From assembly GCF_963676685.1 (NCBI RefSeq), contig NC_092355.1:23064001-23128000 (forward strand): a DNA stretch of 64,000 nt, read 5' to 3'. Under the pieces are notes generated by a model. It made no database searches, was not told the DNA's origin, and was given only the letters and a program-made list of their open reading frames with translations. A program made the translations under genes and the position numbers. Position 1 is the stretch's first letter, and every line of letters begins with the position of its first letter. The DNA comes from Mytilus edulis. Taxonomy: Eukaryota. Of this stretch, positions 6,301-59,300 are shown in pieces.

Positions 6301-9300
6301 ATTGTTTGTTGGATACCAATTTTCGTGGGTTTCGTGAGTACAGGTCAACCACAAAATTTGTGGCACAAATTCAAATGTTCGCCAATTTACAAATTTTATA
6401 TAGGCCTTGTTTGCATAGACTAGCAAATTCATGAAATTTAATGTCCACAATAATGTAACTTTTCCTCAATCCATGAAAAATTGATACCCACAAAAAATAA
6501 ATGAATCCACAGTTATCTACCTTAAACTGGGTTTGTTTAGGAAGAAATCAGATTTCATTATATCCTTTTCAAAAATTTACATTAGTTTAGCAAGGAAAAA
6601 ACGTAAATATTTGGTCCATTTTAATAATTCCACTTTCACAAGTCTAGAAGAGATACTTAATACATAATTTGTCGTAAAAATTATTTTTTGTAGAATTGCG
6701 GCTTGTTAATGGATCTAACTGTTTGGAAGGAAGAGTAGAAATAAAAATAAATGGAGTATGGGGAACTATATCTACATATAATGCACCATTTACTACAAGA
6801 GAAGCTAGTGTCATCTGCAGAGTGTTAGGATTCAGGTGAGAGTTATAGATTTACTATCTGGGAGGCTGGTGTCATCTTTAATTTTTATATTAGGCGAGGC
6901 TAGCATAACAGTTGGTTTCATTTGAGGTTTTACTTTCCTACAGGCTGGCGTCATCTATAAAACTTGGTGTCAGGGGAGACAAGTGCAATCTGTCATCTAA
7001 TAAATATTGGTTTTATGGCGTAATGGGAGAGCTCACCGTTAGAAGAGCAGGCTTCATCTATAAACAAATATGTTCTGGACACGATTTCCTACCTATTCTT
7101 CCCTTAATTTCTGTTTTGTTAAAAAAAAAATTTGAGCCTTGGTGGCCGAGTGTTTTAAGTAGGTTGTGTATTTCACTCTAATCTTAATTGACTAATACTG
7201 CCAGTTTTCCTGCAATTTATGTTGTGTTTCTTTCAAGCATCCAAGCTTCCTCCATAGATATATAACTGGCAGTTATTTTAAAGCCACTGGGCTCAAAGTG
7301 GCATTAAATACAAACTTCAATCAATAAACAAATATACTAATCAGCAAATTTTCATTTTAGTGGAGAAGATGCAATACCATATCAGTATGGATATTTTGGA
7401 CAAGCAGATAGCACAGTACCTGTATGGTATACCTATTTGTATTGTACTGGTTCTGAATCAAGGCTGGAGCAATGTTCAAAACAAAAATATGCTGTTCTTA
7501 GCCATGCCTATGATGTGGGCGTCAGATGCCAAGCAGGTACGTCTGCATGCATACACAAAATAATATGGATTCAATTTTTAGCTCATCGGGGCCCCTTCGG
7601 GCCCCATGTGAGCTTATGCCATCACTTGGCGTCCGTCGTTTGTCGTCGTAAACTATTTCAAAAATCTTCTCCTCTGAAACTATTGGGCCAAATACCTTCA
7701 AACTTTAACTAAATGGTTCTTAGGGTACCTAGTTTATAAATTGTATCCGGAAGTTTTGATCCATTGACAAACATGGCCACCATGGCTAAAAATAGAACAT
7801 AGGGGTCAAATGCAGTTTTTGGCTTATATCTCAAAAACTAAAGCTATTAAAGCAAATCTGACATGGGGGTAAAATTGTTCAATTGGTCAAGATCTATCAG
7901 CCCTGAAATATTCAGACGAATCGACCAACCCATTGTTGGGTTGCACCCTCATGAAAATATTTTTCTGAATTTTTTCTGAACTCGATGCTGAAATTTTACT
8001 GAACACATTCAGTAAACCCTTTTCTTAAAAATGCCTGAATTTGGCACGTTCCAGCAAGTTTTCAGCACATTTTCAGTAAAAATTCAGCAGTACGTTTTCA
8101 GTAAATATTCAGCAATATTCAGAAATAATTCAGCATTAATTCTGAATTTTTCTGAACACCTTGCTGAATTTTACAGAATCTATTAAAAACCTTTTGCTTA
8201 AAAATGTCTGAATTTGGCACATTCCAGCACATTTTCAGCAAATTTTCAGTAACAATTCAGCAAGTTATTTTCAGTAAATATTCAGCAATATTCAGAAATA
8301 ATTCAGCATTAATTTTGAATTTTTCTGAACACCTTTCTGAAATATTCAGAACCTATAAAAAACCTTTTGCTTAAAGATGGCTGAATTTGGCACATTCCAG
8401 CAAGTTTTCAGCAAACTTTCAGTTACAATTCAGCAAGAGTTTCAGTAAATATTCAGAAATAATTAGTATTACTTCTGAATCTTTCTGAACAACTTGCTGA
8501 AATATTCAGAACCTCTTAAACACCATTTTCTAAAAAAAACCAGCTATAATTTAACCCGCTCTAGTTTTCAGAAAATTTTCTGTTAAAGTTCATCTAAGAC
8601 TCTAAAGGTAAACTTTTTAGCATTTCTTTCAAAAATGTTCAACAAACAAAACAATATTTAAGCAAATATTCAGTAAAAATTTGAATTAATCTATACTCAG
8701 CCAATATTCAGTCTTCAGCTATTGTTCAGGATCGGGTTCAGACCATTTTCAGCTTTAGCTTACATTTTTCAGGAAAGGTTCAGATGATTTTCAGTTATAA
8801 TTCAGGAAAGTTTCCATTGGTATTTAGACAATATGAGCTTTTTAATATTCTGTCTGAAAGACACTATTTATCCAAAACAAATAAACATTATTTAAGAAAT
8901 ACAATGGTGTCATATGTGAAGTAGAATAATTAGTTGTGTCTTTGTCTTTTTTATTATTGCTTTTTATTTTGTGTCTTATATAGTTGCAATCAGATCAGTC
9001 AAGCCTTTTACAACTGATGATTAGTTTGTTATGTTGTGACATCAATGACCCAGCATTGTGACATAAGAAATTTATGAGAAAGTGGACACATTTTGAAGTC
9101 GGTTATACATAATACAGTATAGATTTTGCCCATTTTAATCTTTAACTGACCAGTAATGACCGTTTATTATATCTCTGGGTTTTTTGTTTTTTTTTATCTA
9201 TGAATTGTTTGCTCAGCATCAATCATGCCACATCTAATTATTTTTATATTTTGTATAATAAACTTATAATTGTCCCAAGTGAAAGCTTCCATGCTGCTGT

Positions 9301-12300: not shown

Positions 12301-15300
12301 AGATGTACATGTTTAAGTATTCATATTAAACTAAACAAACAATAAAACCATTTCATTCATGTATCATAATTTCTCTCGTAAGTTAAATTACGTTTAAAAT
12401 AATAATTAAAAGTTACGCATATTTCTAATAAATAGTACACAATGTTTTCTCTCTTTAAATAAGTTTTGATATAATAAAAAGATAGTATACATAAAAAGTT
12501 TCTTACCAACTTTGATCTGTCTAATAAAATAATGTGCATCCGTATGTTATCAAAATAAAGTCTAGACGACGAAGCGCACGTCAAAGGCGTAACGTCATAA
12601 AACAGAAACGGGAAAATGTGTTGTTCAAAAGAGCGCAACGTTACATTAGCGCTTTCATAAATAAATAGTAAAAACTGTGTTTCTTATTCTTACAAGAATA
12701 AATGAATATGTTAGTTAAACATTTAATAAATAATAAACTTATATTTAAAATTTGAATATTTCAAATCTTACAGTCCACTAAATATAGAATATGATAGTGT
12801 GAGTGGGGCATCTGTGTACTGTGGACACATTCTTGTTTGTATTATTTTCAGAAGATTTTCAGTATTCTGTCTGAACTGTTCAGCATCTGGCAAATCTGTT
12901 CATATAAGCACTTACAGCTGTTCTGAACAGTTCAGCTTTCTATCATTTCAGAAAGTTTTTTTTTAGCTGTTTTGAACAATTCAACACTGTCTGAATAGTT
13001 CAACACATTTTCAGATGTCTCTCTGAAAAATTAAGCAAGTATTTATTCTGTTCAGAATGATTTCAGTATTGTTTCTGAACATTTCAGGATCTTGAAAATC
13101 TGTTCAGAAAGTTTTCAGGGCTGTTCTGAAAAATTCAGCACTGTTCAAAGATATCAAAAAATTTTCAGCATAGTTTCAGATGTTTGTCTGAGGAGTTCAG
13201 CAATAACTGAACGTTTCAGATGTTTGTCTGAGGAGTTCAGCAATAACTGAACAGTTCAGATTATTTTCAGCTTCAGTTCAGCGATGTCTGAATTTTTCAG
13301 CACAGTCTGAACTTTTCAGAAAATGTTACAGCACTTTTTCAGCAAATCTGAACATTCCAGTAAGTCTTCAGTATTTGTTCAGAATTTGGAAAAAGTGCTT
13401 CAGCACGTTTTCAGATCCCAAAATTTGGTTCAGCATGCATTCAGCTAGGGTCCAGAACCTATTCAGCAAAACTCAGCAAAAATTCAGACATTCTTTTTCA
13501 TGAGGGCTGCTACTAAATTGGTAGTTTTAAGGAAATTTTGCAGTTTTTTGTTATTATCTTGAATATTATTATAGATAGATATAAACTGTAAACAGCATTA
13601 ATGTTCAGCAAAGTAAGATCTACAAAAAAGGTAATATGACCAAAATTGTCAATTGACCCCTTAAGGAGTTATTGCCCTTATAAGACCATTTTACACAATT
13701 TGTTCATCAAGTTTGCTAACATTTAAAAATCTTCTCCTGAAACTGCTAGGCCAAATACCTTCAAACTTTAACTAAATGTTCCTTAGGGTATCTAGTTTAT
13801 AAATTGTATCCGAAGTTTTGATCCATCGACAACCATGGCAGCCATGGCTAAAAATAGAACATAGGGGTAAATGCAGTTTTTGTCCTATATTTCAAAAACT
13901 AAAGCTTTTAGAGCAAATCTGACATGGGCTTATACTGTTCAATAGATCAAAATGTATCAGCTCCTGAAATTTTCAGATGAAACAAACAACCATTGTTGGG
14001 TTGCTGCCACTGAATTGGTAGTTTAAAGAAATTTTGCAGTTTTTTGTTATTATCTCAGATGGTGCCATTAAAACAAAATACATATATGGTTTGGCGATAT
14101 CTGGCCACAGCTTTTATTCATAATATGATAGATTCATACAATATATAATATATATATATAGATAGATAGACCATAGACCCATGTATATGTAGATAGATCT
14201 ATGGTCGGTTACCCGAAGATAATATGGCAACCAGGTAGATAGATAGATGTGAAGATAGATATATATGAAAATGTAAAGATGCACCGTGGGATACACTGGT
14301 GCTTTAAATTTAGAAAACACCGTGGGATACACAAGTGTAGTCTGTATTATCCAAAAACCTAAAATTTCATAGTTAACATTAAGATTCTATGCAGCGAATT
14401 CTGCCATTTACGGGAATATATTTATGATGCTCAAAGTTCAAATAAAAGTCACTTTTCTCAACAGCAAACAAGTTAACATCATTAGTCAAATCTGTATCAT
14501 CACTATCACCGACACAAACCTGAAAAATAAATACAAAAGAGCAGTATCTTGTTCTATAAAAAGGAGTGGGAGGGCGGGTTTTCAAGTTTACCGCTTACAA
14601 AATTTAAACAGCTTGCTTGCTGCGAGGAAATTCTAAAAAGGACTTAATGACGTCACAGAATATATCGTCACACATGTTGGGTAAATCTAAAACATGAAAC
14701 ACAATCCGTGAGTGGCCCCGGCGATAACTGAATTTAAGTCTATTAACTTAAATTCTATTATCTCAGATGGTGCCATTAAAACAAAATACATATATGGTTT
14801 GGCGATATCTGGCCACAGCTTTTATTCATAATATGATAGATTCATACAATATATAATATATATATATAGATAGATAGACCATAGACCCATGTATATGTAG
14901 ATAGATCTATGGTCGGTTACCCGAAGATAATATGGCAACCAGGTAGATAGATAGATGTGAAGATAGATATATATGAAAATGTAAAGATGCACCGTGGGAT
15001 ACACTGGTGCTTTAAATTTAGAAAACACCGTGGGATACACAAGTGTAGTCTGTATTATCCAAAAACCTAAAATTTCATAGTTAACATTAAGATTCTATGC
15101 AGCGAATTCTGCCATTTACGGGAATATATTTATGATGCTCAAAGTTCAAATAAAAGTCACTTTTCTCAACAGCAAACAAGTTAACATCATCAGTCAAATC
15201 TGTATCATCACTATCACCGACACAAACCTGAAAAATAAATACAAAAGAGCAGTATCTTGTTCTATAAAAAGGAGTGGGAGGGCGGGTTTTCAAGTTTACC

Positions 15301-18300
15301 GCTTACAAAATTTAAACAGCTTGCTTGCTGCGAGGAAATTCTAAAAAGGACTTAATGACGTCACAGAATATATCGTCACACATGTTGGGTAAATCTAAAA
15401 CATGAAACACAATCCGTGAGTGGCCCCGGCGATAACTGAATTTAAGTCTATTAACTTAAATTCTATTATCTCAGATGGTGCCATTAAAACAAAATACATA
15501 TATGGTTTGGCGATATCTGGCCACAGCTTTTATTCATAATATGATAGATTCATACAATATATAATATATATATATAGATAGATAGACCATAGACCCATGT
15601 ATATGTAGATAGATCTATGGTCGGTTACCCGAAGATAATATGGCAACCAGGTAGATAGATAGATGTGAAGATAGATATATATGAAAATGTAAAGATGCAC
15701 CGTGGGATACACTGGTGCTTTAAATTTAGAAAACACCGTGGGATACACAAGTGTAGTCTGTATTATCCAAAAACCTAAAATTTCATAGTTAACATTAAGA
15801 TTCTATGCAGCGAATTCTGCCATTTACGGGAATATATTTATGATGCTCAAAGTTCAAATAAAAGTCACTTTTCTCAACAGCAAACAAGTTAACATCATCA
15901 GTCAAATCTGTATCATCACTATCACCGACACAAACCTGAAAAATAAATACAAAAGAGCAGTATCTTGTTCTATAAAAAGGAGTGGGAGGGCGGGTTTTCA
16001 AGTTTACCGCTTACAAAATTTAAACAGCTTGCTTGCTGCGAGGAAATTCTAAAAAGGACTTAATGACGTCACAGAATATATCGTCACACATGTTGGGTAA
16101 ATCTAAAACATGAAACACAATCCGTGAGTGGCCCCGGCGATAACTGAATTTAAGTCTATTAACTTAAATTCTATTATCTCAGATGGTGCCATTAAAACAA
16201 AATACATATATGGTTTGGCGATATCTGGCCACAGCTTTTATTCATAATATGATAGATTCATACAATATATAATATATATATATAGATAGATAGACCATAG
16301 ACCCATGTATATGTAGATAGATCTATGGTCGGTTACCCGAAGATAATATGGCAACCAGGTAGATAGATAGATGTGAAGATAGATATATATGAAAATGTAA
16401 AGATGCACCGTGGGATACACTGGTGCTTTAAATTTAGAAAACACCGTGGGATACACAAGTGTAGTCTGTATTATCCAAAAACCTAAAATTTCATAGTTAA
16501 CATTAAGATTCTATGCAGCGAATTCTGCCATTTACGGGAATATATTTATGATGCTCAAAGTTCAAATAAAAGTCACTTTTCTCAACAGCAAACAAGTTAA
16601 CATCATCAGTCAAATCTGTATCATCACTATCACCGACACAAACCTGAAAAATAAATACAAAAGAGCAGTATCTTGTTCTATAAAAAAGGAGTGGGAGGGC
16701 GGGTTTTCAAGTTTACCGCTTACAAAATTTAAACAGCTTGCTTGCTGCGAGGAAATTCTAAAAAGGACTTAATGACGTCACAGAATATATCGTCACACAT
16801 GTTGGGTAAATCTAAAACATGAAACACAATCCGTGAGTGGCCCCGGCGATAACTGAATTTAAGTCTATTAACTTAAATTCTATTATCTCAGATGGTGCCA
16901 TTAAAACAAAATACATATATGGTTTGGCGATATCTGGCCACAGCTTTTATTCATAATATGATAGATTCATACAATATATAATATATATATATAGATAGAT
17001 AGACCATAGACCCATGTATATGTAGATAGATCTATGGTCGGTTACCCGAAGATAATATGGCAACCAGGTAGATAGATAGATGTGAAGATAGATATATATG
17101 AAAATGTAAAGATGCACCNNNNNNNNNNNNNNNNNNNNNNNNNNNNNNNNNNNNNNNNNNNNNNNNNNNNNNNNNNNNNNNNNNNNNNNNNNNNNNNNNN
17201 NNNNNNNNNNNNNNNNNNAATGTGTAAGATGACTATGTACACTGTAGGAGTGAAATTATTATAATGTAAACGCCCATAAATACGAAGCAAGAATAACTGA
17301 ATCAACTCAGGCAAACGCAAATTAAAAGAATGACTTTGAGAACCCTATATTAGAGTCTACTATAAATCCATGTATGCAGAAACAAACATTTAGTATAACA
17401 GCAGCAACCACTCTCTCTCTCTCATCTTAGGTTTGAACCAGGTTGCCCACATGAAACCTTATTTCCATTAAAGGACAAGGTGATTTGAACTTGGATATCA
17501 CAAGAAAGCCTATATTAATCAAAGTAAACCTGGTTAAAGTTACCTGTTAGGACATCCAAAAGTTATAAAAAATGACCTGTGTTACACAAAAAACAAAGCA
17601 CAAACAAGTGCTTAACAACATCTAGATACCCTCATAATTAAAAGCATAACATTTCAAATAGTCCCAGCATTCATGCTAACTGATACTGAAATTCAACCGG
17701 TACTATAAATCATAATAAATAACAACCATAATTTGGAATCAACTGTTGCTAAGCAACCAGTAGGGCCAATGATTTATGCAAATGAAAAGTTCCTCGTAAT
17801 GCACCAGCCTAAAATAACAAACAGCACCTAAACATACAGTGTACGATACTCGTAAATTGGGCAACTTCTAGAATTCCCACGATGAAGATTACAATACATT
17901 CTAGACTAGTATATATATAAATTAAAGCTGTTTTCGACACCTAAATACTTAAGATTTTTAACGGTGGAGTAGACTGCAAGACAAGCTGTAAATAATTACT
18001 TAGTTTGTAATAGATTTGCTAATATTACATGTACATATCCGTTTAACTGCTACTGACAAATTTAAATTACACAAAACTTAAAATAGTCTCATTTAAAAGT
18101 TGATTACAAGATAAACCCATTGCACCCCTTTTTTCCCTTAATATATATATATACATGTATAGAAAAAAAATCAATAATAATGAAAATGTTCAAAACCCTG
18201 AGACTGATTTGTAGGGTTTGTGGCAAACAGCAAAAAGAAGTCTGTCCTAAATTAGTGATCAATAAATATACACATCTATAAACTTTTGTCCTTTAAATTG

Positions 18301-20308
18301 TGGTACTTTATTGCAAAATCTGTATTCATGCAGTGCATGCATATCTGATTTTTTATCAGGTTATTAAACAAGATAAATATTATAATGTTATATAAATCGA
18401 TAGCGTCCTCCATTCAAAATTCATTTAATATATATATATTATATAACAATTATATAGAATGTACAAAATGTAACCTCATATTTACGAAAGTTTTTTATTT
18501 CAAACACATGATGCGGCATCCCATCATTGTAAGGCCATATAAATTTGTAAAAGTAACACATTCAGCAATTAAGTTTAGAAACTAAAATATAAACGTCACA
18601 CAAATCTTTTCAATCTAACCCATAAGAGTAGAAAAAGTTGTCGTAATCTATATAAATATGTTTGTTATATGTTGTAATCACATGTACATTTGTACATGCG
18701 GGGGTTTAACTTAAAAGTAATATACTGCTTTTAACTAGTAAATCTGACGATTACCTGAAAAATTCTCAACTGGATCATACCAATGCAAAGCTCTAGGGGT
18801 TGGCATAAATAACATCGATGATGATTCAATGTACAAATGTAGGTGACCAAAGGAGTTGAGTTAGTGGCGTTATGAGTCGTGAATCCAGTCCAGTCTGGTA
18901 ACCCATCTGTAAAAACTAGTGTGTCCTTGTTGTCCAAGTCTCTGGTCCAACTGTTCCAACCCTTGGCCGTGTTCTGTGGCCGAGCAAGGTCTCTAACTGA
19001 TTTACCCAACATTGTGCTACAACTCAACAAAAAGTAAATATTAGTTCCACCATTCTACATAGCATTGACATAAGAAAATCAAATGACTGTTATTCACTGT
19101 ACAAAGAAACAATAACAATTAAAAATTAAAAACCAATTCTTCAGAGAACAATTGAAGGTCTTTCCACCTCGATAATTAGAATGAAATTGAGAAAAAGATG
19201 TTAGAAAGGGTCACTCCTTGTTGATGTAATTTGGTACCTCAACTGATATAGAAAAATAAGATTAATAAGTATATGCAGAAGACTTAATTGTTTTATAATG
19301 AACAAAAACAAATTTAAAGCAAAGGTCAAAATCTAGAACGTCAAGTTGACCTTTGACCTTGACCTCAATTTCAAGGTCATAGGTCAGTGATCTCAAATCA
19401 AAAGACCCCAGGTCAATCACTTGTATGGTTGAAAAGAAATATCGATTTCAAAGACAAAAGGGGAGAAAACTCATAAAAGGGTTGACCAAAACACTTCGAC
19501 TTAAATGGGTTGAAGTTGCCCCTTGTTGTAAACAATAATTTGGCAAACACATCGTATCATTAACTGTTACATTTTCTTTTGAATAACGATAACAAGCAAA
19601 AATCAAAATTTATAACATGACCTTGACCTTTGACCTTGACCTCAATTTGAAGGTCATGGGTCAGTGAACTTAAATTAGAAGGTCCGAGGTCAATCACTTG
19701 TATGGTTGTGGAGAAATAATGATTTCAAATACATAAGGGGAGAAAACTCCTATAAGGGTTAACCAAAACACTTCGACTGATTAATTTGAAGTTGCGCCTT
19801 ATTGTAAACAGTGATTTTGCAAACATATCATATCATTAACTGTTACAGTTTCTTTTGAATAACGATAACAAGCAAAATTCAAAATTTATAACATGACCTT
19901 GACCTTTAACCTTGACCTCAATTTTCTTTATTTGGACCAAGGACTTCATATCAAAAGACTGTAGGCCTCTACAACTTATACTGTCTGAATTAACCCAACA
20001 TATCGTTTATTTGAAATTTTCAAAGGGAAATAACTCCCATAAGATGTCTTCTGATTCCCTCAGTCAAAGTAAAACAAATCATTCTTAAGAGTAGACGAAC
20101 AATTTGGTGAAAACAGTTTGTAAAAATCTTATACGGTTTTAGAGATATAGCGATAACAAGAAAAAGGGGACACGGGGAGATAACTCCTATAAGAATAAGT
20201 GTTCGGTCACACAGGGTGAGTTTTGAAACCTCCATTACTGAACAACATCGTTGGCCAAACATCCATTAGATATGTTGTAAAACAAAAAAGCATCTCAGAC
20301 GGCAGAAG

Positions 20309-20348
<40 letters not shown>

Positions 20349-23300
20349 ATCAGAAGAAAAACAAAAGGTCTTTCCACAAAAAGTGGAAAGACCTAATTAT
20401 GTATACTCATACATGTAGTTGTGTCGATAATAGTTACAATAATTTAAAAAAAATTAATTCAAAATTAGTATATACACAATGTATACAGATTTATATATTT
20501 ATTAAACTTAAATCCATAGTCAGTTGATAGTAACATACATGTAGTGTAATATTAGTATATAATTGAGTTATTACAACAATAATTCAAGCTGTGGCCTGTT
20601 TACATATGGCTAAATTCTTGATTTAACTGAACTATTCATACCATTTCGACCTAGTCTAGGCTAGAAAGTAGTAGCAACTAAAAAATGTATACATCATCAT
20701 GACACTGTGATGAACGGTTCTGGACAATTTTTAGTACACAAATGTGTAGGTACACGCAAAATTTATAGCCGGATATATACAGATAATGATAATATTTGCT
20801 TAAATCCACCAGCAAGCTAACATTTGGCAATGATTTCTTTTGGCTACTGCTTCTTAACTCCGGGTATCGTCTCTGTTCAAGATTTCCAAGATTTTTGTTT
20901 ATTTGTATCGAAAGTTGAACTTCCGGTTACGAATCTGGGTACTTCGCCCCAAAGAGTACGTCCCTTTTACGTTCATATCCTTTCATGGAATATTTGCTGT
21001 ATATGTGCTATAAAAGATCTAGATACACAATTACCGATGTATACCCTCTTAAGGAAAATTTACTTTTAATTCGGAAGTTTTCGGGAGTTCATTAAATACA
21101 CGTTACTAACCTGCATGATCTGTTACAGCGCAAAATACAATTTGTTAGGCTTACCCATAGGCAGTAGACGATCTGTCAATACTCAATTTCAATAGTATAA
21201 GATATAGGGAAAAGGTAATATATAAAAAAAATTAAACTAAAAACAAATTAAACTCGTCGTGCATCTAATTTATGTAGAAATATACAATGACGCATGGTAA
21301 ACATGATAATCATTATAGTCTGCAAATCTTAGGACAATGTTGCATCTAATTACTCACACTTGTAAAAATTAAATAATTATAAAAATGAAAACGAATAATC
21401 CATTCATGGGACCAATTTCTCATTCAGTCTTTGCATGTGCTCTCCACGTGGGGATGCAATATGGTTAAAAAATGGATCGATAAAACGAATTCTTTCTAAG
21501 ATTAGTACTTCTAATAAACATTAGAAGCATGAGTCAGTTTATAACCATACAAATTCTTACAGTAGTTTACTTTATCATTTAATTTTCAAGTTTACCGCTT
21601 ACAAAATTTAAACAGCTTGCTTGCTGCGAGGAAATTCTAAAAAGGACTTAATGACGTCACAGAATATATCGTCACACATGTTGGGTAAATCTAAAACATG
21701 AAACACAATCCGTGAGTGGCCCCGGCGATAACTGAATTTAAGTCTATTAACTTAAATTCTATTATTTTGAATATCATTATAGATAGATATAAACTGTAAG
21801 CAGCAATAATGTTCAGCAAAGTAAGATCTACAAAAAAGTTAAATTACCAAAATTGTCAATTGACCCCTTAAGGAGTTATTGCCCTTAAAAGACAATTTCA
21901 CACAATTTGTTCATCAAGTTTGTTAACATTTAAAAACCTTCTCCTCTGATTTGCAGGTGAGCGATTCAGGTTCTTGAGAGCCTCTTGTTTGTGGATATGA
22001 TTACTGTGGATTCATTATAATTCGTTGGATACCAATTTATGTGGGTTCTATGGGTACAGATGAACCATGATTTTAAATGTTTAATGAATTACAAATATTT
22101 TATAAGGTTGTATGCAGACATTGGTAAAACCAAGAAATCAAGTATCCACAAAAAAAGCAAGCTTTCCTCAATTCACTAAAAATTTGAGCCCATGAAAATA
22201 AATGAAACCACAGTATCATGAATTTAGGGAAAATAATACTGTCTTGAATGCTTTGTCTTCTGGGCTTTGAATAAAACTATATTAACGGATCAGTAGAAAA
22301 TGAAATTAGGTTTTTGGTATTCCATAAATAATGATGAATGCACAGTATTATGGCACGATGTATCGGGATAAGTCAAGGTCATTTAGTAACTAGAAATAGA
22401 GCTAAATTTGTGAAGAAAAAGGTTTTCTGGATGCTAAACCAAAGTCTACATATGGGACTGCAACCTTATACTTGCATTATAAATGGTTACATTTAACAAT
22501 AGAAAGATCCCTATTGATTTTAGATTAATAAGGTCAAGGTCATAGTGACTAAATTAGACTGAACTTTGTGCAAAAAAGTGGTATCTGGATACCAAATCAA
22601 TTACTACATATGGGATTGCAACTTGGATATATGGTCATATAGAATAAAAGGAAGATCCTGATTAATTTTAAGGTCACTATGTCTAAGGTCAAGGTCGTAT
22701 TGACTAAAATTAGATTTTAATAAAAATTATAGTTTTGTGAATATTTGATTTTTAGTTTTGCCATAATCTGCATATAAGCCTATAGTAAATTTGTACCTAG
22801 CTGAACATTTTAATTCATTGGTTTTTTTTACCCATGAAATTCAATCATGGGTTGTGCAAAATTATCAGCTTATGTAAGGATTATACAATGAAAAAGCATG
22901 TTTGTGTAAATAGTAGGAAAACTTAATAAAGATAGAATTCTAAAATTAGAAATGATAAAATAAATTTTATAATGTGTTTTGAGTAAATAAAATTATCAAG
23001 GATTATCTCCCTCTTTTTTGTGTTGCACAATAAAACAGATAGATAAACTTTACATTCCAGCTTAAGTTTAATAAAACTAAATTGTTTGAGTGATCTCCCC
23101 TTAAAAAATCAAAAGTTTTAAAATTTTGAATTGATGCAAATTTTTATGCCCCACATAATTTTTCGGTCTGTGTGTCCGTTTGTCCGTCGTACCGTTGGTC
23201 CGTCTGTCCTGCCTCAGGTTAAAGTTTTTGGTCAAGGTAGTTTTTGATGAAGTTGAAGTCCAATCTTGAAACTTAGTACACATGTACCCTATGATATGAT

Positions 23301-32300: not shown

Positions 32301-35300
32301 GGTCAGGGACAGAAGACTTGATGATAAATAGTTGGTGTGTGGTTGTTTGCTGATGAAATGTATTGAAATTATAATGAGTTACAAGATTTACATTTATGTT
32401 GATGTTTGAGGATGGGGTGGAAAGCTCTGACAAAAAAACTAATGTACCGGTATATCAAAAAGGATAATATTTGGATTACCAATGAGATAACTATTTATGA
32501 TTTGATTTCAGATAATGTTTTGGTTGCCAATGGATCACTAGGAGAGGACGGGGATACAGCAATGGTAGAATTTCCCAGTATCACCATATCCTCCACCATA
32601 TACTTACATTTCAAATATATGATAGGCAATTGGAACAGTGCTCAAAACCTGATGTATTCCATCAGTAAAGATGGAGATTTTACATCAGTTATGACAACGA
32701 GGCCAATACTAGCTGCATGGCAGTCATACTGTGTCAGTGTACCATCTCCAGGGGAGGTAACTCTGAAATTTAAGGCTGACAAAACTCAAATGAATAACCA
32801 TACTGATGTATCTATTGATGATGTTGTGTTGTCAGCTAAAACCTGTCCAGGTAAGTTATTACTGTAAATTGGGTTATTTTCTGGTTAGGTTTTGCTCAGA
32901 GTTTGTGCCTTAGATAGGACAGCCGAAAATCTTTGCTATGTTCATTATTCATTTTTATGGTCTTTAAGGTGGTACCCAACACTTTTGCTAAAATTAATTT
33001 GGCTCGTTTAATTTTCATAAAATTTTGACAAAGTATTTACTTTGACATTTTAACAAAAATATAAAAATTTCAAAACTTTTGAACCAACCGTTTTGTCAGA
33101 AAAAATACACTGGTTATATAGCAGTTTGACAAACACTAATTTTGATCATTGAGAAGCTTAATATTTCCCTAACAACACAACGTAATTAAAACGTTTAGCT
33201 GATTTTACAGAGTTATCTCCCTGTAGTGTTGGGTACCACCTTAACAACGAAATTAAAATCCTCCTGAAGAGTAATTTTTCACAGATAAAGGTCTATATAA
33301 GACACATGTTTAAATTGAAGTCTACGTAACAATTTGATATAAAATTAACAAATACAAAAGCACGCAGCTAAAAGTGTCAGGTGATGCTTTATAGTTTCAC
33401 ACATATTGACCCATCACAGACCTTTTTCAGAGACACAATCATCACCAGTCATTAAAATTCTATGAGTTTACTACATTACTAGACTCAATTTGGGTCAAGT
33501 TGAGCGAATTGAATTTACAAAAGAATCACCTTTTTACAATGTTTGACATAAAAGGGATGTGAAATACATGAAAACAATTTATTTACTTAGAGGTTGACAA
33601 ATTTTAGATTGAATGTAGAGGCCCAAGTTGATAGGAATGTATTTATATAAACTTATAAAAATATTTACAGTTAAATCTTTGTCCTGTGATTTTGATGACT
33701 CTGCCGTATGTGGATACTACATGTCTGATGCCTGGAAGAGAAAAGAACATGACAACAGGATGGGAGGTAAGCTTGATAGGGGGTCTCATTTGGGGGGTTC
33801 TGATTTTGATGACTCTGCCGTATGTGGATACTACATGTCTGATGCCTGGAAGAGGAAAGAACATAACAACAGGATGGGAGGTAAGATTGATAGGGGGTCT
33901 CATTTGGGGGGTTCTGATTTTGATGACTCTGCCGTATGTGGATACTACATGTCTGATGCCTGGAAGAGGAAAGAACATAACAACAGGATGGGAGGTAAGA
34001 TTGATAGGGGGTCTCATTTGGGGGGTTCTGATTTTGATGACTCTGCCGTATGTGGATACTACATGTCTGATGCCTGGAAGAGGAAAGAACATAACAACAG
34101 GATGGGAGGTAAGATTGATAGGGGGTCTCATTGGGGGGTTCTGATTTTGATGACTCTGCCGTATGTGGATACTACATGTCTGATGCCTGGAAGAGGAAAG
34201 AACATAACAACAGGATGGGAGGTAAGATTGATAGGGGGTCTCATGGGGGGGGGGGGGGGGGGGGGGTTCTGGTTATGATGACACTCTGCCGTATGTGGAT
34301 ACTACATGTCTGATGCCTGGAAGAGGAAAGAACATAACAACAGGATGGGAGGTAAGATTGATAGGGGGTCTCATTGGGGGTTCTAATTTTGATGACTCTG
34401 CCGTATGTGGATACTACATGTCTGATGCCTGGAAGAGAAAAGAACATAACAACAGGATGGGAGGTAAGCTTGATATAGGCTTTATGCAAATTATACGCCT
34501 GTCTAAATATAGAGAATACTGACGATTCATTTATTTTTGTGGGTACCGATTTATTGGATTAAGCAAAACTTACAAGTTTGTTGAATTCTTCATACAGTCC
34601 TATAAAGGAAAATATGTTATTTGTTTGACATTTAAAGGAGAAGGTTCACGAAGGGTTAAAATCAGCCCTGATTTTTTTGTGTTTTTTAAATCGGGCCAAG
34701 AAATTACAAATTTCACTCAAAAATACTTGTGATAATACCATTAAGACAAAAATATTTTTTTCTGACACTTTCCTTTACAATTTATGGAGCTATGACCCCT
34801 TCAATAAACATAATTTGTATTAAAAGGTCAATTTTGGTACTTTTTCTCATAATTTTAATTGTTTTTGGCATAATTAACCTTGGCCGCCATCTACGATCCA
34901 AAAAGTTTTTATATTGATGAAATCTATATCAAAATTGGGATCTTTTGGTGACAACACATTTTGGATCGTAGGTGGCTGCCAAGGTGTTTCTAAAGCTTAT
35001 AGGTCTGAAAAATGCACAAAATCATTATATTTTGACAAAAGGTCAAAAATGGGCTTAATACTTTGGAGAATATTATGTACTCTTATGAAAAGAACTGATA
35101 TATTTAGCATATAGACTTTTGAAATATACCCATTTACGAACCAAATTGAGACCTTTTTGGTGTTTTATGATAAAGTTGATATTTTAGGCCATTTTGTGCC
35201 ATAAGGGAACCTTGTCGTTTGTGGTTCATCTGTACCTTCGAAATATACAAAAACTGGTATCCAACGAATCATAATGTATACACAGTAGACTATTTAGTGA

Positions 35301-41300: not shown

Positions 41301-44300
41301 TAAAATACAATACAGTTATGTCCTAAGTGAAGCTACATGTTTGGTCAGAATTGGCCTTATAATCTCAAGTACAGTCAAACCTGTTATTAAGTATAAATGT
41401 ATTTTTGTTAGGTCAATCTCTTCTTGTCCCTCTATTGTAAGGCTTTAATAGGCTGATAAATATAAGCAGTTGGAACTAAATAAGAATTATCTCACTTATC
41501 CGCTTATGATTTGAAATGATATTTGTATTAAATATGGTATCTGTTGGTCCTAGAGCATGCTTTTTTCTTTTAATGCAATAAAGAAGTTTTTTTTTTCTGC
41601 ACTTTTGGTAATTTTATCTATGTTTTTGAAGTTTGAGCATTTTAATTTTTTTGACAATTTTATAATGATTTTGAAAAGTTGCATTATTTTATTTATTGAT
41701 AATGTTAAATGCAGAGGTAGATGTCACAACTCCATATGCATGGCAGTGGCAGACCACAGAAGAAACGACTGCTGAATATCATCCTGGACAAACTATGGAT
41801 TTACAACCAGAAAATAGACCAACTACTGATTTTGAACCAGGAAATGGACCAACTGCTGAATCTGAGCCAGAAAACGGACCAACCGCTGAATCTGAACCAG
41901 AAAATGGACCAACCGCTGAATCTGAGCTAAGAAGTGGACCAACTGCTGAATCTGAACCAGAAAATGGACCAACCGCTGAATCGGAGCCAGAAAATGGACC
42001 AACTGCAGAATCTGAGCCAGAAAATGGACCAACTGCTGAATCTGAGCCAGAAAATGGACCAACTTCTGAATTTGAGCCAGAAAATGGACCAACTTCTGAA
42101 TCTGAGCCAGAAAATGGACCAACTTCTGAATCTGAGCCAGAGCATGGACCAACTGATTCAGAACTCACGACATATGCTGAACCAGAAAATAGACCAACTG
42201 ATTCAGAATTCACTACTAATATGGAACCAGAAAATGGACCAACAACAGAATTTGGAACAACATCAATGCCAAGATCACCATTTAATGGTAAGTGACATAA
42301 AAGTTAAAACAACCAAATTACTTTTAATGCAAGTATGTTGATTTATTACCTTGAAAATTTCCAAACATTAGATTTAGCATATCAATCCTACCATGTTTAT
42401 GTCTTGACTGTGACATGTAATACACAATTTATGTATAGATTTAAGAAGATGTGGTATGAGTGCCAATGAGACAACTCTCCATCTAAGTCACAATTTATAA
42501 AGGTAAACCATTATAGGTCAAGGTACAGCCTTCAACATGGAGCCTTTGCTCACACCAAACAACAAGCTATAAAGGGCCCCAAAAGTACTAGTGTAAACCA
42601 TTCAAACGAGAAAAACCAACGGTCTAATCTATATAAAATGCTAGCCTACTGTACATCAGATTCCTAGATGTTCTTGTGAATTTACAGTAATACGTTATAC
42701 TGGCTTATATCTTTTAGATGAATGTTTTAACCATAAACCATACATATGTTTTAGTGAATTTACAGTAAAACTTTATACTGGCTTAAATCTTTCAGGTGGA
42801 TGTTTTAACCATAACACATACATATGTTCTAGTGTATTTACAGTAAAACCTTATACTGACTTATCTTTTAGAGGTTAGTTGGATGTCTTAACCATAACTC
42901 GTATATATTTTTAGTGAATTTACAGTAAAACCTTTTACTGACTTGTATTTTTCAGATGGATGTTATAACCATAACACAATTGTATGTTCTGATTATTTTG
43001 GAATGAACTTTACATCCTACCCAAATGTCTTTGGTCAGAATGATTACTATGAAGCAGTAAATCAATGGCACAGCTCTTGGGCAAGATTCCCCTTTGATAC
43101 CTGTGGTATGGTGTATTCACACACAATGTGTGCTTTATTATTCCCTACCTGTCAGAATGGTACCACTCAACAGATCTGTCGACAAAGTTGCCTGGGTATG
43201 TAGTAAGGATGTTTGCCACTATGTTTCAAAACAACAAGCTTTTTAAAAAGTAAAATCACAAAAATACTGAACTCCGCTGAAAACTCAAAACAGAAACTCC
43301 CTAAGAGATAGTCATAAAATGATAGTATATTGATAAAGGAACTAAAAAAGCAGAATTTTGAAGGGTTTGTGTCAAGGATCCGGAAATTTTTTCATCTAAT
43401 TTCGGTCATTTTCATACAACTTAAAAGTTGATGCCCCTTTTCAAAAAATGATTGTCAAAATCACATTACTGCATGAGACTCATTATGATTATGCTCATAC
43501 TCGATCGTCATGTTCGTAGCATCAACAAACTTGTTTCACTGTTGCATCGCATTTGCTTCATGATTTGTCCTACCATTTTCCAAAAATCGATCAAGAGCAA
43601 TTAAGGGAAGGCAACAGTTTAAAAATAAAATGATTTTAATGACTCAAAACGATAATATTCTCAGTTATGTTTCTTTCGATCCTGAAGTCAAAATTCAAAC
43701 CGGATGTAAAGCGACAATACTAAAACGAACAATTCCGGACTCATTTCCGGGATTAGTTTTGTTTACCCAAATCACAGGAAATCATCGGCTTTTTAATATT
43801 TTACCTTTAATAGTGCAAGAATATTAATTAAAATAGTTGCACTAGCTTTATTTAGGATGAAATTATTTTAAATTTACGATTAATTGTCTAAATCTGTGGA
43901 AGAGAATTTCAAGCATGCGTATTACATAGTAAACAAAGCACGTGTGTTAGAAGTTAAAAAAAAAAAAATTCTACGTATATTAAACCAAGTTTTAATTTAA
44001 TTTTAAATCATAATTGACAATTGTCTGACCTGTTGGGTAATTAAATAATGAAGCCAGTTGGTATGGAATTTTTATTTCTTTATAATAATAGTTTGGAGCT
44101 TGTGATTAATTGCCAGGTGTGAATTAAAAACACAGGTAAAGAGATTAATTAGCAATCATTAGCCAATAGCTCCCAGAGGCATTAATATAGTTATTAGGAG
44201 GGCCCTCAGGATTATAACACTTTATTGGAGTGGCAGTTTAATTACAGGAAGTTGATAGATAACAAAACAAAAATATGTTCAAAATGGCGATTTTGAAAGT

Positions 44301-56300: not shown

Positions 56301-59300
56301 TAAAAAAAAAAAAAAATGGAAGTTAGCAGTATGAAAATTGTATGTTGTCTTTATATACATATACAGATAAAATCAGTAAAATGTCATTTTTAAAACAGGA
56401 AACTTGTTGTTCATGTAGGTCCTTGGTAACTAAGACAACCAATGTAATCATGATATAATCTTTTACATTTTTGCAATTGCTTTAATATCTCGTGGCAGAA
56501 TGTTTGCCTCAGGTTATAAAGTAGGCTATGAGTTCAATATCTGGCCAGCTTAAACCAAAGACTTGAAAATTGATATCTGTTGTTTTTCACAAAGATGCGA
56601 GTATTTAGGAGTAAAAGCAAAACTGGTCTCCTTGTGACCTAAGTCGGGTGATATTTCTTTCTTTCTTTATTCCGACTATTACCTTGTGCACTAGAAGTGA
56701 GACTCTATTATTGTATCTTCACTTAGGGTTGTTTCAAATAAACATACTTTAGACCAGGGAAGGCAATATGAATTTTCCAAATTATTCTCAAATATTCCCC
56801 TTTATAACTTTATATGCATTGGTCAGTCCAATTTGAGTTGGGGCATTTGTGTCCTCAAACACAATGATGCCATTCTTTTATTTTTAATATATAAATACCG
56901 GTATATGATTTCCTTATTCTTGTAGGAGGTTACATGTATACTTCAACATGTTTGCCCAACACATATGAAGGAAACCTTGCCCATCTTACCACCGTTCCAT
57001 TTGAGGTGCAGCCATCTAAACCAATGAAGGCGTCATTCTACTACCACATGAATGGAGTCAACATGGGAACATTCCAAGTTTCTGTAAACCAGCAGGGTAC
57101 TGTTCTCCAAACATCTTTGGTATTTTCCATGGCTGGAAGTCAGAGTGATGAATGGTATTATTCCTGTGTAAATCTACCATCTGGTAATGCATCCGTGACA
57201 TTTTCCGCTGTTTTGGGTGACGGATGTGATTCTGTGTTCGCTCTTGATGATGTTGTGATTTCAGACGGAATGTGTCAAGGTAAGTACCAGAATTCACTTT
57301 TGCAGAATCAAAAGGACTATGGGTAATCTCATTGTTCATACTTGAAAATGAAAATAATGTCATATGATTGGTTTTTGATGTTTTTAAACCAATCACAATG
57401 TTTTGGTGTACACTTTTGAAAATATTTCCCAGAAGTTGGCACAATGCAATTGATTCTCAAATGGCGAATTTTTCTGATGAATGATTATTATTACAATGAT
57501 AACTTCTTAAACCATAGAAAGGTTTTAATTCCATATATGGTTAGGTATTATATCTATATCTATTATTACTTAATTATATTGTAACTTCAGAAATTATTGC
57601 AAGGTTTCTATTAGTGTAAATAATGCGACTGGTTCAGTATTGCATTGAGAAGATTTTTGAACATACATCTTTATGCAGTTTTTTTTTGTGTAATCGCAAT
57701 AGTTAATCTGACATTTTTATACGACCGCAAAAATTTTAATTTTTTGGTCGTATATTGCTATCACGTTGGCGTCGTTGGCGGCGTCTACGTCGTCGGCGTC
57801 GTCGTCGTCGTCCGAATACTTTTAGTTTTCGCACTCTAACTTTAGTAAAAGTGAATAGAAATCAATGAAATTTTAACACAAGGTTTATGACCACAAAAGG
57901 AAGGTTGGGATTGATTTTGGGAATTTTGGTCCCAACATTTTAGGAATAAGGGGCCAAAAAGGGCCCAAATAAGCATTTTCTTGGTTTTCGCACTATAACT
58001 TTAGTTTAAGTGAATAGAAATCTATGAAATTTTGACACAAGGTTTATGACCACAAAAGGAAGGTTGGGATTGATTTTGGGAGTTTTGGTTCCAACAGTTT
58101 AGGAATTAAGGGCCAAAAAAGGGCCCAAATAAGCATTATTCTTGGTTTTCGCACAATAACTTTAGTATAAGTAAATAGAAATCAATGAAATTTTAACACA
58201 AGGTTTATGACCACAAAAGGAAGGTTGGGATTGATTTTTGGAGTTGAGGTCACAACAGTTTATGAATTAAGGTGGTACCCAACACTTTCACTAAAATTAA
58301 TTTGGCTCATTTAATTTTCATAAAATTTTGTCAAATTATTTACTTTGACACTTTAACAAAAATATAAAAATTTAAAATTTTTTGAACCAACCGTTTTGCC
58401 AGAAAAATTACACTGGTTATATAGCAATTTGACAAACACCAATTTTGGTCATTGAGAAGCTTAATATTCCTTTTACACACAACGTAATTAAAACGTTTAG
58501 CTGATTTTACAGAGTTATCTCCCTGTAGTGTTAGGTACCACCTTAAGGGCCAAAAATGGGCCCAAATAAGCATTATTTTTGCACCATAACTTTAGTATAA
58601 GTAAATAGAAATCTATGAAATTTAAACACAAGGTTTATGACCATAAAAGGAAGGTTGGGTTTGATTTTGGGAGTTTTGGTCCTAACAGTTTAGGAATAAG
58701 GGGCCCAAAGGGTCCAAAATTGAACTTTGTGTGATTTCATCAAAAATTGAATAATTGGGGTTCTTTGATATGCCGAATCTAACTATGTATGTAGATTCTT
58801 AATCTTTGGTCCCGTTTTCAAATTGGTCTACATTAAGGTCCAAAGGGTCCAAAATTAAACTTAGTTTGATTTTAACAAAAATTGAATCCTTTGGCTTATT
58901 TGATATGCTTTATCTAAATATGTACTTTGATTTTTGATTATGGGCCAAGTTTTCAAGTTGGTCCAAATCAGGATTCCATATCAAGTATTGTGCAATAGCA
59001 AGAAATTTTCAATTGCACAGTATTGCACAATAGCAAGAAATTTTCAATTGCACAGTATTGCACAATAGCAAGAAATATCTAATTGCACAATATTGTGCAA
59101 TAGCAATTAATTTTCAATTGGAGTTATCTTTCTTTGTATAGAATAGTAGTTAATAATATATGTTGGAAATTTGCCAGGCATGACTATGATGTCATTTTCT
59201 ATTTTTATTTGCCAATAACTTTATGTAAATAACTTCATTGGAAATTTGCCAATATAAAATGTTGCTGATGAAGTTTTTTTTATTGTTTTATACAATAAAC

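What the first reader, a model, noticed from the sequence alone, without database searches (positions are those of the whole stretch)
14048..21767. Element with (A-B)x4-A...unique...B architecture whose end-to-end junction matches its target site
Seen: the 708-bp unit is the element's left end (A, ~525 bp) fused to its right end (B, 185 bp), and B reappears alone at 21583-21767. There are no TIRs. The B-to-A junction reads aattc-TATTATCT-cagat and the empty host site reads ttgt-TATTATCT-tgaat (intact near 13552), so both share an 8-bp core, as in attP x attB recombination. Two models (inference): (i) a non-autonomous split-direct-repeat tyrosine-recombinase retroelement (Ngaro/PAT-type, reading A1-body-B1-A2-B2... 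on the minus strand) with an amplified terminus; (ii) a Helentron-type rolling-circle element, supported by the terminal hairpin, the 5' (GATA)n tract and ggcgata sub-terminal motifs, forming head-to-tail concatemers of a deletion derivative next to a long copy. Either way it suggests a circular intermediate and sequence-directed insertion, and may show a satellite forming from element ends.
Basis: partly seen in the sequence, partly recalled or inferred. Interest (0 to 1): 0.75.

Follow-up and report, generated by a model that had tools for sequence, protein, structure and literature searches.

The report
Gene-less Ngaro retrotransposon with amplified end
This is a young, gene-less copy of a known kind of jumping element (Ngaro) whose 708-base end piece has been copied at least four times in a row; it shares only two letters with its landing sites, and the point where its two ends join is predicted to fold into a hairpin kept across 14 related families, which may be what its recombinase cuts.

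Summary
The array, the lone B and the junction are real, but the anatomy and the 8-bp core need correcting. Other copies show the true repeat is 355 bp plus a 172-bp spacer. On the minus strand the element reads A1-body-B1-[A2-spacer-B2]x4+: a non-coding Ngaro tyrosine-recombinase retrotransposon. A relative on C9 with the same junction encodes gag-like, RT/RNase H, recombinase and SGNH ORFs. The Helentron model is rejected. Only TT is shared with targets: TTATCT follows 1 of 44 right ends. An empty allele lacks exactly 708 bp in 4 of 4 runs. The terminal unit is also amplified, without gaps, at 2 other family loci and in 2 sister families. The window's units share private variants, so the array arose locally; its length is unknown (gap). 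The junction folds into a covarying hairpin in 14 families, laid out like an integron attC site. Earlier scan notes proposed this on other DNA; it is untested at the bench. Known class, useful mechanistic lead.

The parts
14050..21763 (-). Whole non-autonomous Ngaro element including both TT (sense AA) cores; true length unknown because of the gap
21583..21763 (-).
   Evidence: 100% identical to the array copies, including a private variant
17219..21582 (-). Non-coding body, shared with other copies at 89-95% identity to the C10 copy; longest ORF 107 aa
17600..17857 (-). Broken relic of the gag-like ORF1 of the coding relative
   Evidence: tblastn E 3e-7, 36% identity, with stops
19128..20394 (.). 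Unrelated nested repeat with a poly-A tract, short sub-terminal inverted repeats and a terminal hairpin, absent from 3 sister copies checked; Helentron-like by recalled anatomy, not tested
17119..17218 (.). Assembly gap (100 N). By comparison with the C10 copy it hides about 2.3 kb of B1 and body, plus any further units
16883..17118 (-). Partial fifth B repeat (B1 or a further unit), cut by the gap
14050..16882 (-). Four tandem units A2-spacer-B2 (708, 708, 708, 709 bp)
14052..14406 (-). Outermost B2, the 3' split direct repeat (355 bp, holds the GATA-rich tract)
   Evidence: other copies match query 1-355 twice
14407..14578 (-). Spacer between A2 and B2 (172 bp); private variants at 14483 (unit 1 only) and 14555 (all units)
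14579..14759 (-). A2 of the outermost unit with the TT core at 14758-14759; private variant at 14645
14723..14762 (-). Predicted junction hairpin spanning B|A (outer stem with the core, 1-nt internal loop, 11-bp inner stem); repeated at each of the four junctions
   Evidence: DNA fold z -3.03; covariation over 14 families
13506..13738 (+). Empty paralog of the host repeat that was the target; single TT at 13554-13555
   Evidence: matches 14003-14055 at 93% and 21760-21945 at 94%

Best explanation
The element is a young, non-coding Ngaro retrotransposon laid out A1-body-B1-[A2-spacer-B2]n, likely copied through RNA and inserted by the enzymes of a coding relative, and its 708-bp end unit was likely multiplied at this locus by unequal exchange between B repeats. 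Shown: split direct repeats; descent of the body from a gag-RT/RH-YR-SGNH element; a 2-bp TT/AA core present once at the internal junction, once in empty sites and once at each end of filled sites; local origin of the units. Inferred: RT copies the transcript, and the internal B|A junction templates joining of the cDNA ends (the published model for this order); the tyrosine recombinase crosses that junction into a host AA dinucleotide with a weak preference for T on the 3' side. I think the substrate is most likely the junction folded as a single strand, as in integron attC sites (about 0.45, untested). Recombination between the two B repeats, 708 bp apart, would give both extra units and copies with no unit; recombination between A repeats would give solo A-spacer-B units. 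All these forms exist in this genome.
For: Layout: of 20 copies fetched, 13 show repeat-spacer-repeat-repeat-body-repeat with both ends inside 10 kb. Coding relative at G000:C9:31107162-31121223: A1/A2 100% over 180 bp, B1/B2 100% over 333 bp, termini 81-88% identical to the window, same 23-bp junction. Pfam: RVT_1 E 2.4e-9 and Phage_integrase E 3.3e-9 (both over cut-off), GDSL/SGNH E 1.4e-5 (under cut-off), no Dam; catalytic motifs present. Relics of ORF1, RT, YR or SGNH lie in the bodies of family copies, in the same order and orientation. Targets: TT at 56/56 and 55/56 left positions and 44/44 right; A before 40/56, A after 32/44, T next 29/44. Empty paralogs with one TT: 6 of 38 paired insertions had a close paralog and all 6 show it. 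Orthologous empty allele of a solo copy: exact 708-bp skip in 4 of 4 runs from 4 studies. Array: all 4 units share 2 variants absent from 15 other units and from 4 read sets; unit 1 has a third. Gap-free arrays: C10 n=2 and C13 n=2 in this family; C6 n=3 and C10 n=2 in sister families, 2 of 32 loci fetched. Hand count: about 22 single-unit, 3 arrayed, 26 solo and 8 unit-less loci. Hairpin: 87.6% of cells paired, 11 of 17 pairs with two-sided change, 0/500 shuffles as high, slid controls 27-51%.
Against: The array ends at a gap, and 11 of 20 family loci fetched also hold gaps, so unit number and the B1-body joint are not seen; only contigs, no long reads, were available. The one coding copy of this lineage is only 81-88% identical at the ends and the next YR is 51% identical, so the actual helper is not identified. 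A 2-bp core cannot be told from a 2-bp target duplication by filled and empty sites alone; only the single TT at the internal junction favours crossover. No circle was detected. The 14 families are related, which inflates shuffle tests (tool text). The sense strand folds better in 12 of 14 families but often by under 1 kcal/mol, while the DIRS-1 cDNA seen by experiment is antisense (PMC7192593, passages). No RT phylogeny against named Ngaro elements was built.
Confidence: 0.82

Rival explanations
1. Same Ngaro element, but the extra units were made before or during insertion: RT jumped repeatedly between B1 and B2, or small A-spacer-B circles were re-inserted at the junction by the recombinase.
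For: Units are 99.7-100% identical. Three or more extra units in so young a copy would need several exchange rounds, but only one copying event. Solo units can be young and absent from other individuals. The junction is itself a good target.
Against: Unit-less copies, the expected reciprocal products, exist (about 8). At C13 both units share a deletion that the innermost B lacks, which fits a hybrid made by unequal exchange. Shared private variants exclude circles from other loci.
Confidence: 0.3
2. The n>=4 array is an assembly artefact: the natural B-A-spacer-B loop was unrolled at a contig end.
For: The array ends at a 100-N gap, units are nearly identical, and unit 4 has a homopolymer difference. 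Gaps are common in this family.
Against: Unit 1 differs from units 2-4 at 14483, so two local spacer versions exist. Four other arrays have no gap, and the C13 one has diverged units and a nested insert.
Confidence: 0.15
3. The junction hairpin is not the recombination substrate but an RNA or cDNA signal for template jumping or priming, or a double-stranded pair of binding arms; insertion is by ordinary two-strand exchange on a double-stranded circle.
For: The published DIRS model uses a double-stranded circle and notes an RNA hairpin as a possible primer (PMC7192593, passages). Strand asymmetry in folding is small.
Against: The crossover lies in the outer stem, not between the arms as in classical YR sites (recalled). 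Two-strand exchange usually needs a longer matched overlap (recalled), yet only 2 bp match.
Confidence: 0.45
4. Helentron-type rolling-circle element forming head-to-tail concatemers.
For: Insertion at TT, a hairpin near one end and a GATA-rich tract. Non-autonomous Helentrons carry satellite-like arrays in oysters (PMC7492417, search listing only).
Against: The same ends enclose RT, RNase H, YR and SGNH ORFs on C9. The body holds relics of them. Ordinary copies have the split-repeat layout. The hairpin is shared by sister RT/YR families.
Confidence: 0.02

Closest known systems
Ngaro-like YR retrotransposons with SGNH hydrolase (Xenopus DIRS-53_XT; PMC9210276, passages and section 8 read)
   Same: A1 at the 5' end and B1, A2, B2 at the 3' end; the coding relative has overlapping gag-like, RT/RH and YR ORFs, then SGNH, with no methyltransferase.
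   Different: The window copy is non-coding, has a 172-bp spacer between A2 and B2, and its terminal unit is tandemly amplified. The parts read do not describe arrays, target cores or a junction hairpin.
Cafeteria burkhardae Ngaro types 1-4 (PMC8547959, passages and section 11 read)
   Same: A1-ORFs-B1A2B2 layout; solo AB repeats ascribed to recombination between 5' and 3' repeats, like the 26 solo units here.
   Different: Protist host, coding or 5'-deleted copies, preference for virophage DNA; no terminal arrays in the parts read.
TOC1 of Chlamydomonas reinhardtii, non-autonomous version of TOC3 (PMC5613634, passages read)
   Same: Non-coding partner of a YR retroelement. Its split repeats with a short unique spacer before the last repeat are recalled; the original paper was not held.
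   Different: TOC belongs to the PAT/DIRS group with a methyltransferase (PMC4157794, passages); the relative here has SGNH and no Dam match.
SIRE/VIPER of Trypanosoma cruzi (PMC6681497, passages read)
   Same: A short A2-internal-B2 element that corresponds to the end of a split-repeat retroelement; whether it moves by itself is left open there, as for the solo units here.
   Different: Kinetoplastid VIPER group; no SGNH ORF mentioned in the passages read.
Integron attC sites (PMC5027507 and PMC3458562, passages read); a works-like comparison only
   Same: Imperfect hairpin of two stems separated by an unpaired spacer, with a variable terminal loop; crossover in the outer stem at a 2-3 base micro-homology (AAC paired with GTT there; AAT or AAA facing GTT or TTT here); tyrosine recombinase.
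   Different: Bacterial cassette system with extrahelical bases and proven single-strand recombination. None of that is shown here, and the element is not an integron.

Membership tests
Ngaro (order DIRS) | Split direct repeats A1...B1-A2-B2, internal repeats downstream of the YR gene | tested here: met
   in the window B1 is cut by the gap
Ngaro (order DIRS) | gag-like, RT/RNase H and YR ORFs | tested here: met
   In the C9 relative; only relics in the window and other non-coding copies. The gag-like ORF has no Pfam match and is named by position and a Cys-His motif.
Ngaro (order DIRS) | No methyltransferase domain; SGNH hydrolase ORF after YR in some animal members | tested here: met
   No Dam match; GDSL/SGNH E 1.4e-5, below the curated cut-off. 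An unrelated element in L084 did show a weak Dam match.
Ngaro (order DIRS) | RT or YR phylogeny groups with named Ngaro elements | not tested
   No named reference sequences were in hand
Ngaro (order DIRS) | Insertion by crossover without a conventional target-site duplication | tested here: met
   Single TT in 6 of 6 close empty paralogs; 0-2 duplicated bases beyond TT in 37 of 38 paired insertions; exact 708-bp empty allele. A 2-bp duplication is formally equivalent.
Ngaro (order DIRS) | Circular cDNA intermediate | not testable with these tools
   The internal junction has the same sequence a circle would have, so contigs cannot separate them
PAT/TOC/Kangaroo | Methyltransferase domain after RNase H | tested here: not met
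DIRS1-like | Inverted terminal repeats and an internal complementary region | tested here: not met
Helentron/Helitron | Rep-helicase (plus endonuclease) ORF in the autonomous partner | tested here: not met
   The partner with these ends encodes RT/YR/SGNH. No genome-wide Rep-helicase search was run.
TRIM / LTR retrotransposon | Two terminal direct repeats (TG...CA) with a 4-6 bp target duplication (recalled definition) | tested here: not met
   The element continues past the second 355-bp repeat into a body and a different terminal repeat; no such duplication

The most novel reading that the evidence does not exclude
Ngaro retrotransposons integrate like integron cassettes: the recombinase binds the B|A junction folded as a single-stranded hairpin, exchanges one strand at a 2-base AA micro-homology and leaves resolution to replication. 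The A-spacer-B end unit is then a self-contained cassette that can be excised, stacked in arrays and re-inserted on its own.
Probability: 0.35. Interest if true: 0.78.

Novelty: new member of a known kind. Interest (0 to 1): 0.5.

Why it matters
The specificity of DIRS-order recombinases had not been tested by experiment according to PMC7192593 (2020, passages read), and how Ngaro elements join their ends and integrate is still a model. This genome offers a defined test substrate: a 40-nt junction hairpin with natural compensatory changes in 14 families, target statistics from 100 ends, and young coding copies. It also shows split repeats yielding a series of solo, unit-less and arrayed forms, a small route from a retrotransposon end to a tandem repeat. 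Searches found no paper describing Ngaro terminal arrays or an attC-like junction, but the key subscription papers are not in the library. The element itself is an ordinary member of a known class.

Tried and rejected
An 8-bp core: rejected. Targets mimicking the junction beyond the core: rejected; in a sister family the base 5' of AA is C in 13 of 20 where the junction has T, and the base 3' is T in 14 of 20 where the junction has A (one 5' row looks like an internal junction). Co-transfer of junction bases by heteroduplex: no positive link between A at +1 and T at +2 (Fisher p 0.17). A coding role for the 107-aa ORF at 18731-19054: no Pfam match. A closer coding partner: none; next YR 51% identical among 121 scored of 1552 candidates. 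Contigs of other individuals cannot resolve the array, and no raw or long reads were offered. Five insertions had only divergent paralogs with inconsistent spacing and were set aside; the middle of that output was cut. Rows dropped before the target count: 2 of 58 left ends (internal junction remnants) and 3 of 46 right ends (a B-B joint, a duplicate locus, a misaligned row); the window's own right end was added. In the hairpin test, loci without a resolved junction and repeat copies of one family were left out of the 32 sister loci fetched; core positions were set by hand from the repeat boundaries; the C9 row of alignment A1 is offset and nearly identical to the window row. PMC3783388 had none of the terms sought. 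PMC454463 was not held. No supplements were read.
Full report
Setting. The window lies at G000:C12:23064001-23128000 of a 1.37-Gb assembly. It is a mollusc genome by inference: one matching run is labelled 'mollusc metagenome', and earlier AI notes call it a mussel.

Observation. Four units of 708, 708, 708 and 709 bp start at 14048 and a partial fifth runs into a 100-N gap at 17119-17218. They differ by one substitution and one extra A. The last 183 bp of the unit recur at 21583-21765 with 100% identity. The ends are not inverted repeats (14 of 61 matches). The flanks, 14003-14049 and 21764-21945, are the two halves of a host repeat with an intact paralog at 13506-13738, so both sides of the gap belong to one insertion.

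True anatomy. The unit is a dispersed family: 81 exact matches to its start motif and 28 to the internal junction. Many copies match the whole unit and then its first 355 bp again. Of 20 loci fetched, 13 show repeat(355)-spacer(172)-repeat(177)-repeat(355)-body-repeat(177) with both ends in view. On the minus strand this is A1-body-B1-A2-spacer-B2, the split-direct-repeat layout of Ngaro and PAT elements (PMC4157794, PMC9210276, passages). The window copy has at least four A2-spacer-B2 units where one is normal. The body is about 5.3 kb in gap-free copies and has no ORF over 153 aa.

Coding relative. A recombinase hit on C9 lies 1.4 kb from a junction match. That element, C9:31107162-31121223, has identical A1/A2 (180 bp) and B1/B2 (333 bp), ends 81-88% identical to the window, and ORFs in the order gag-like, RT/RNase H (587 aa), YR (331 aa), SGNH (210 aa). 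Pfam gives RVT_1 and Phage_integrase above cut-off, GDSL/SGNH below cut-off and no Dam; the catalytic motifs are present. The window body keeps a broken ORF1 relic at 17600-17857 (E 3e-7), and other copies keep RT, YR or SGNH relics. This is the gene set described for Xenopus Ngaro (PMC9210276, section 8). It is the only coding copy of this lineage found; the next YR is 51% identical. Whether it is the helper is inferred, not shown.

Target site. From 56 left and 44 right ends, the only overlap is TT (sense AA). ATCT is always on the left end, so it belongs to the element; TTATCT follows only 1 of 44 right ends. Host bases are biased to A before the core (40/56), A after it (32/44) and T next (29/44). 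Six of 38 paired insertions had a close empty paralog and all six show a single TT, including the window and C9. At a solo copy on C2, contigs of 4 of 4 runs skip exactly 708 bp with 3 ambiguous letters. In a sister family the core is again AA, but the neighbouring host bases differ from its junction. So the crossover needs two matching bases and a weak preference, not an 8-bp att core. This resembles the trinucleotide rule proposed for DIRS elements (PMC7192593, passages).

The array. All four units carry two variants (14555, 14645) absent from 15 other units and from contigs of 4 runs; the lone A1 shares the second; unit 1 has a third at 14483. The units therefore arose locally and are not all one sequence. 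Gap-free arrays exist at C10 (n=2) and C13 (n=2, diverged, one unit with a nested insert), and in two sister families at C6 (n=3, 871 bp) and C10 (n=2, 1079 bp), 2 of 32 loci fetched. A hand count gives about 22 single-unit, 3 arrayed, 26 solo and 8 unit-less loci. This is the series expected from recombination between split repeats; solo units are known from Cafeteria Ngaro and from SIRE (PMC8547959, PMC6681497, passages). Against this: the array ends at a gap, 11 of 20 family loci have gaps against 0 of 32 sister loci, and no long reads were available. I put the odds that at least two units are real at about 0.85.

Junction hairpin. The sense strand across B|A folds as DNA with z -3.03: the last bases of B plus the AA core pair with a stretch about 30 nt into A. 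The same fold appears in 13 sister families whose junctions are a median 48% alike. B ends pair for 3.7 bases on average with their own A and 1.9 with other families' (0 of 100000 permutations). On a structure-blind alignment 87.6% of cells pair, 11 of 17 pairs change on both sides, and slid controls reach 27-51%. The families are related, so these are not probabilities; by eye there are at least four independent compensatory changes in the outer stem. The layout matches integron attC sites, where recombination occurs in the outer stem of a folded single strand at a short micro-homology and is resolved by replication (PMC5027507, PMC3458562, passages). I took that comparison from earlier scan note e1-9809039 and tested only the conservation of the fold and the 2-bp core. 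Which strand folds, and whether the recombinase, RT or neither uses it, is unknown.

Helentron model. Rejected for the main element. The hairpin and the ggcgata motif at 14720 and 21724 are arms of the junction fold. A 1.27-kb nested insert at 19128-20394 does look Helentron-like by recalled anatomy.

Verdict. A new, young, non-autonomous member of a known class. The terminal arrays and the covarying junction hairpin were not found in print in searches, which cover open-access papers only; the scan has noted gene-less Ngaro elements and the hairpin before on other DNA. Interest 0.5.

Noticed in passing
window 19128-20394: Nested repeat with a 38-base poly-A tract, short sub-terminal inverted repeats and a terminal hairpin, inserted at an AATT site of the body; looks like a non-autonomous Helentron (recalled anatomy).
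   Followed up: partly
L036 (G000:C11:32534215-32536536): The filled site has A right after the TT core where 53 of 53 matching units of the host satellite have T; a junction-derived base or a point mutation. One case.
   Followed up: partly
G000:C6:16315280-16332222 (L144, L176, L238): A coding sister Ngaro with a three-unit terminal array is nested inside a unit-less copy of the window's family.
   Followed up: partly
L084 (G000:C2 near 39.14 Mb): A YR element with a weak Dam match (DIRS/PAT type) ends 278 bp before a copy of this family.
   Followed up: partly
G000:C9:31104278-31122499 (L081, L082): The coding relative sits in one arm of a 1.6-kb near-perfect inverted repeat, and has about 8 kb of unexplained sequence between A1 and its first ORF.
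   Followed up: no
target sites of the family: Biases away from the core: a pyrimidine 3 bases left of TT (44 of 56) and A 8 bases right of it (28 of 44), possibly recombinase contact positions.
   Followed up: no
L100 (G000:C10 near 6.707 Mb): A solo unit followed directly by a second copy of the 177-bp repeat, a form not explained by the simple series.
   Followed up: no
window 33687-34475, 41807-42155, 57825-58272, 7963-8592: Other tandem arrays (114, 30, 161 and 173 bp periods); the 30-bp one lies in an open frame of 206 aa.
   Followed up: no
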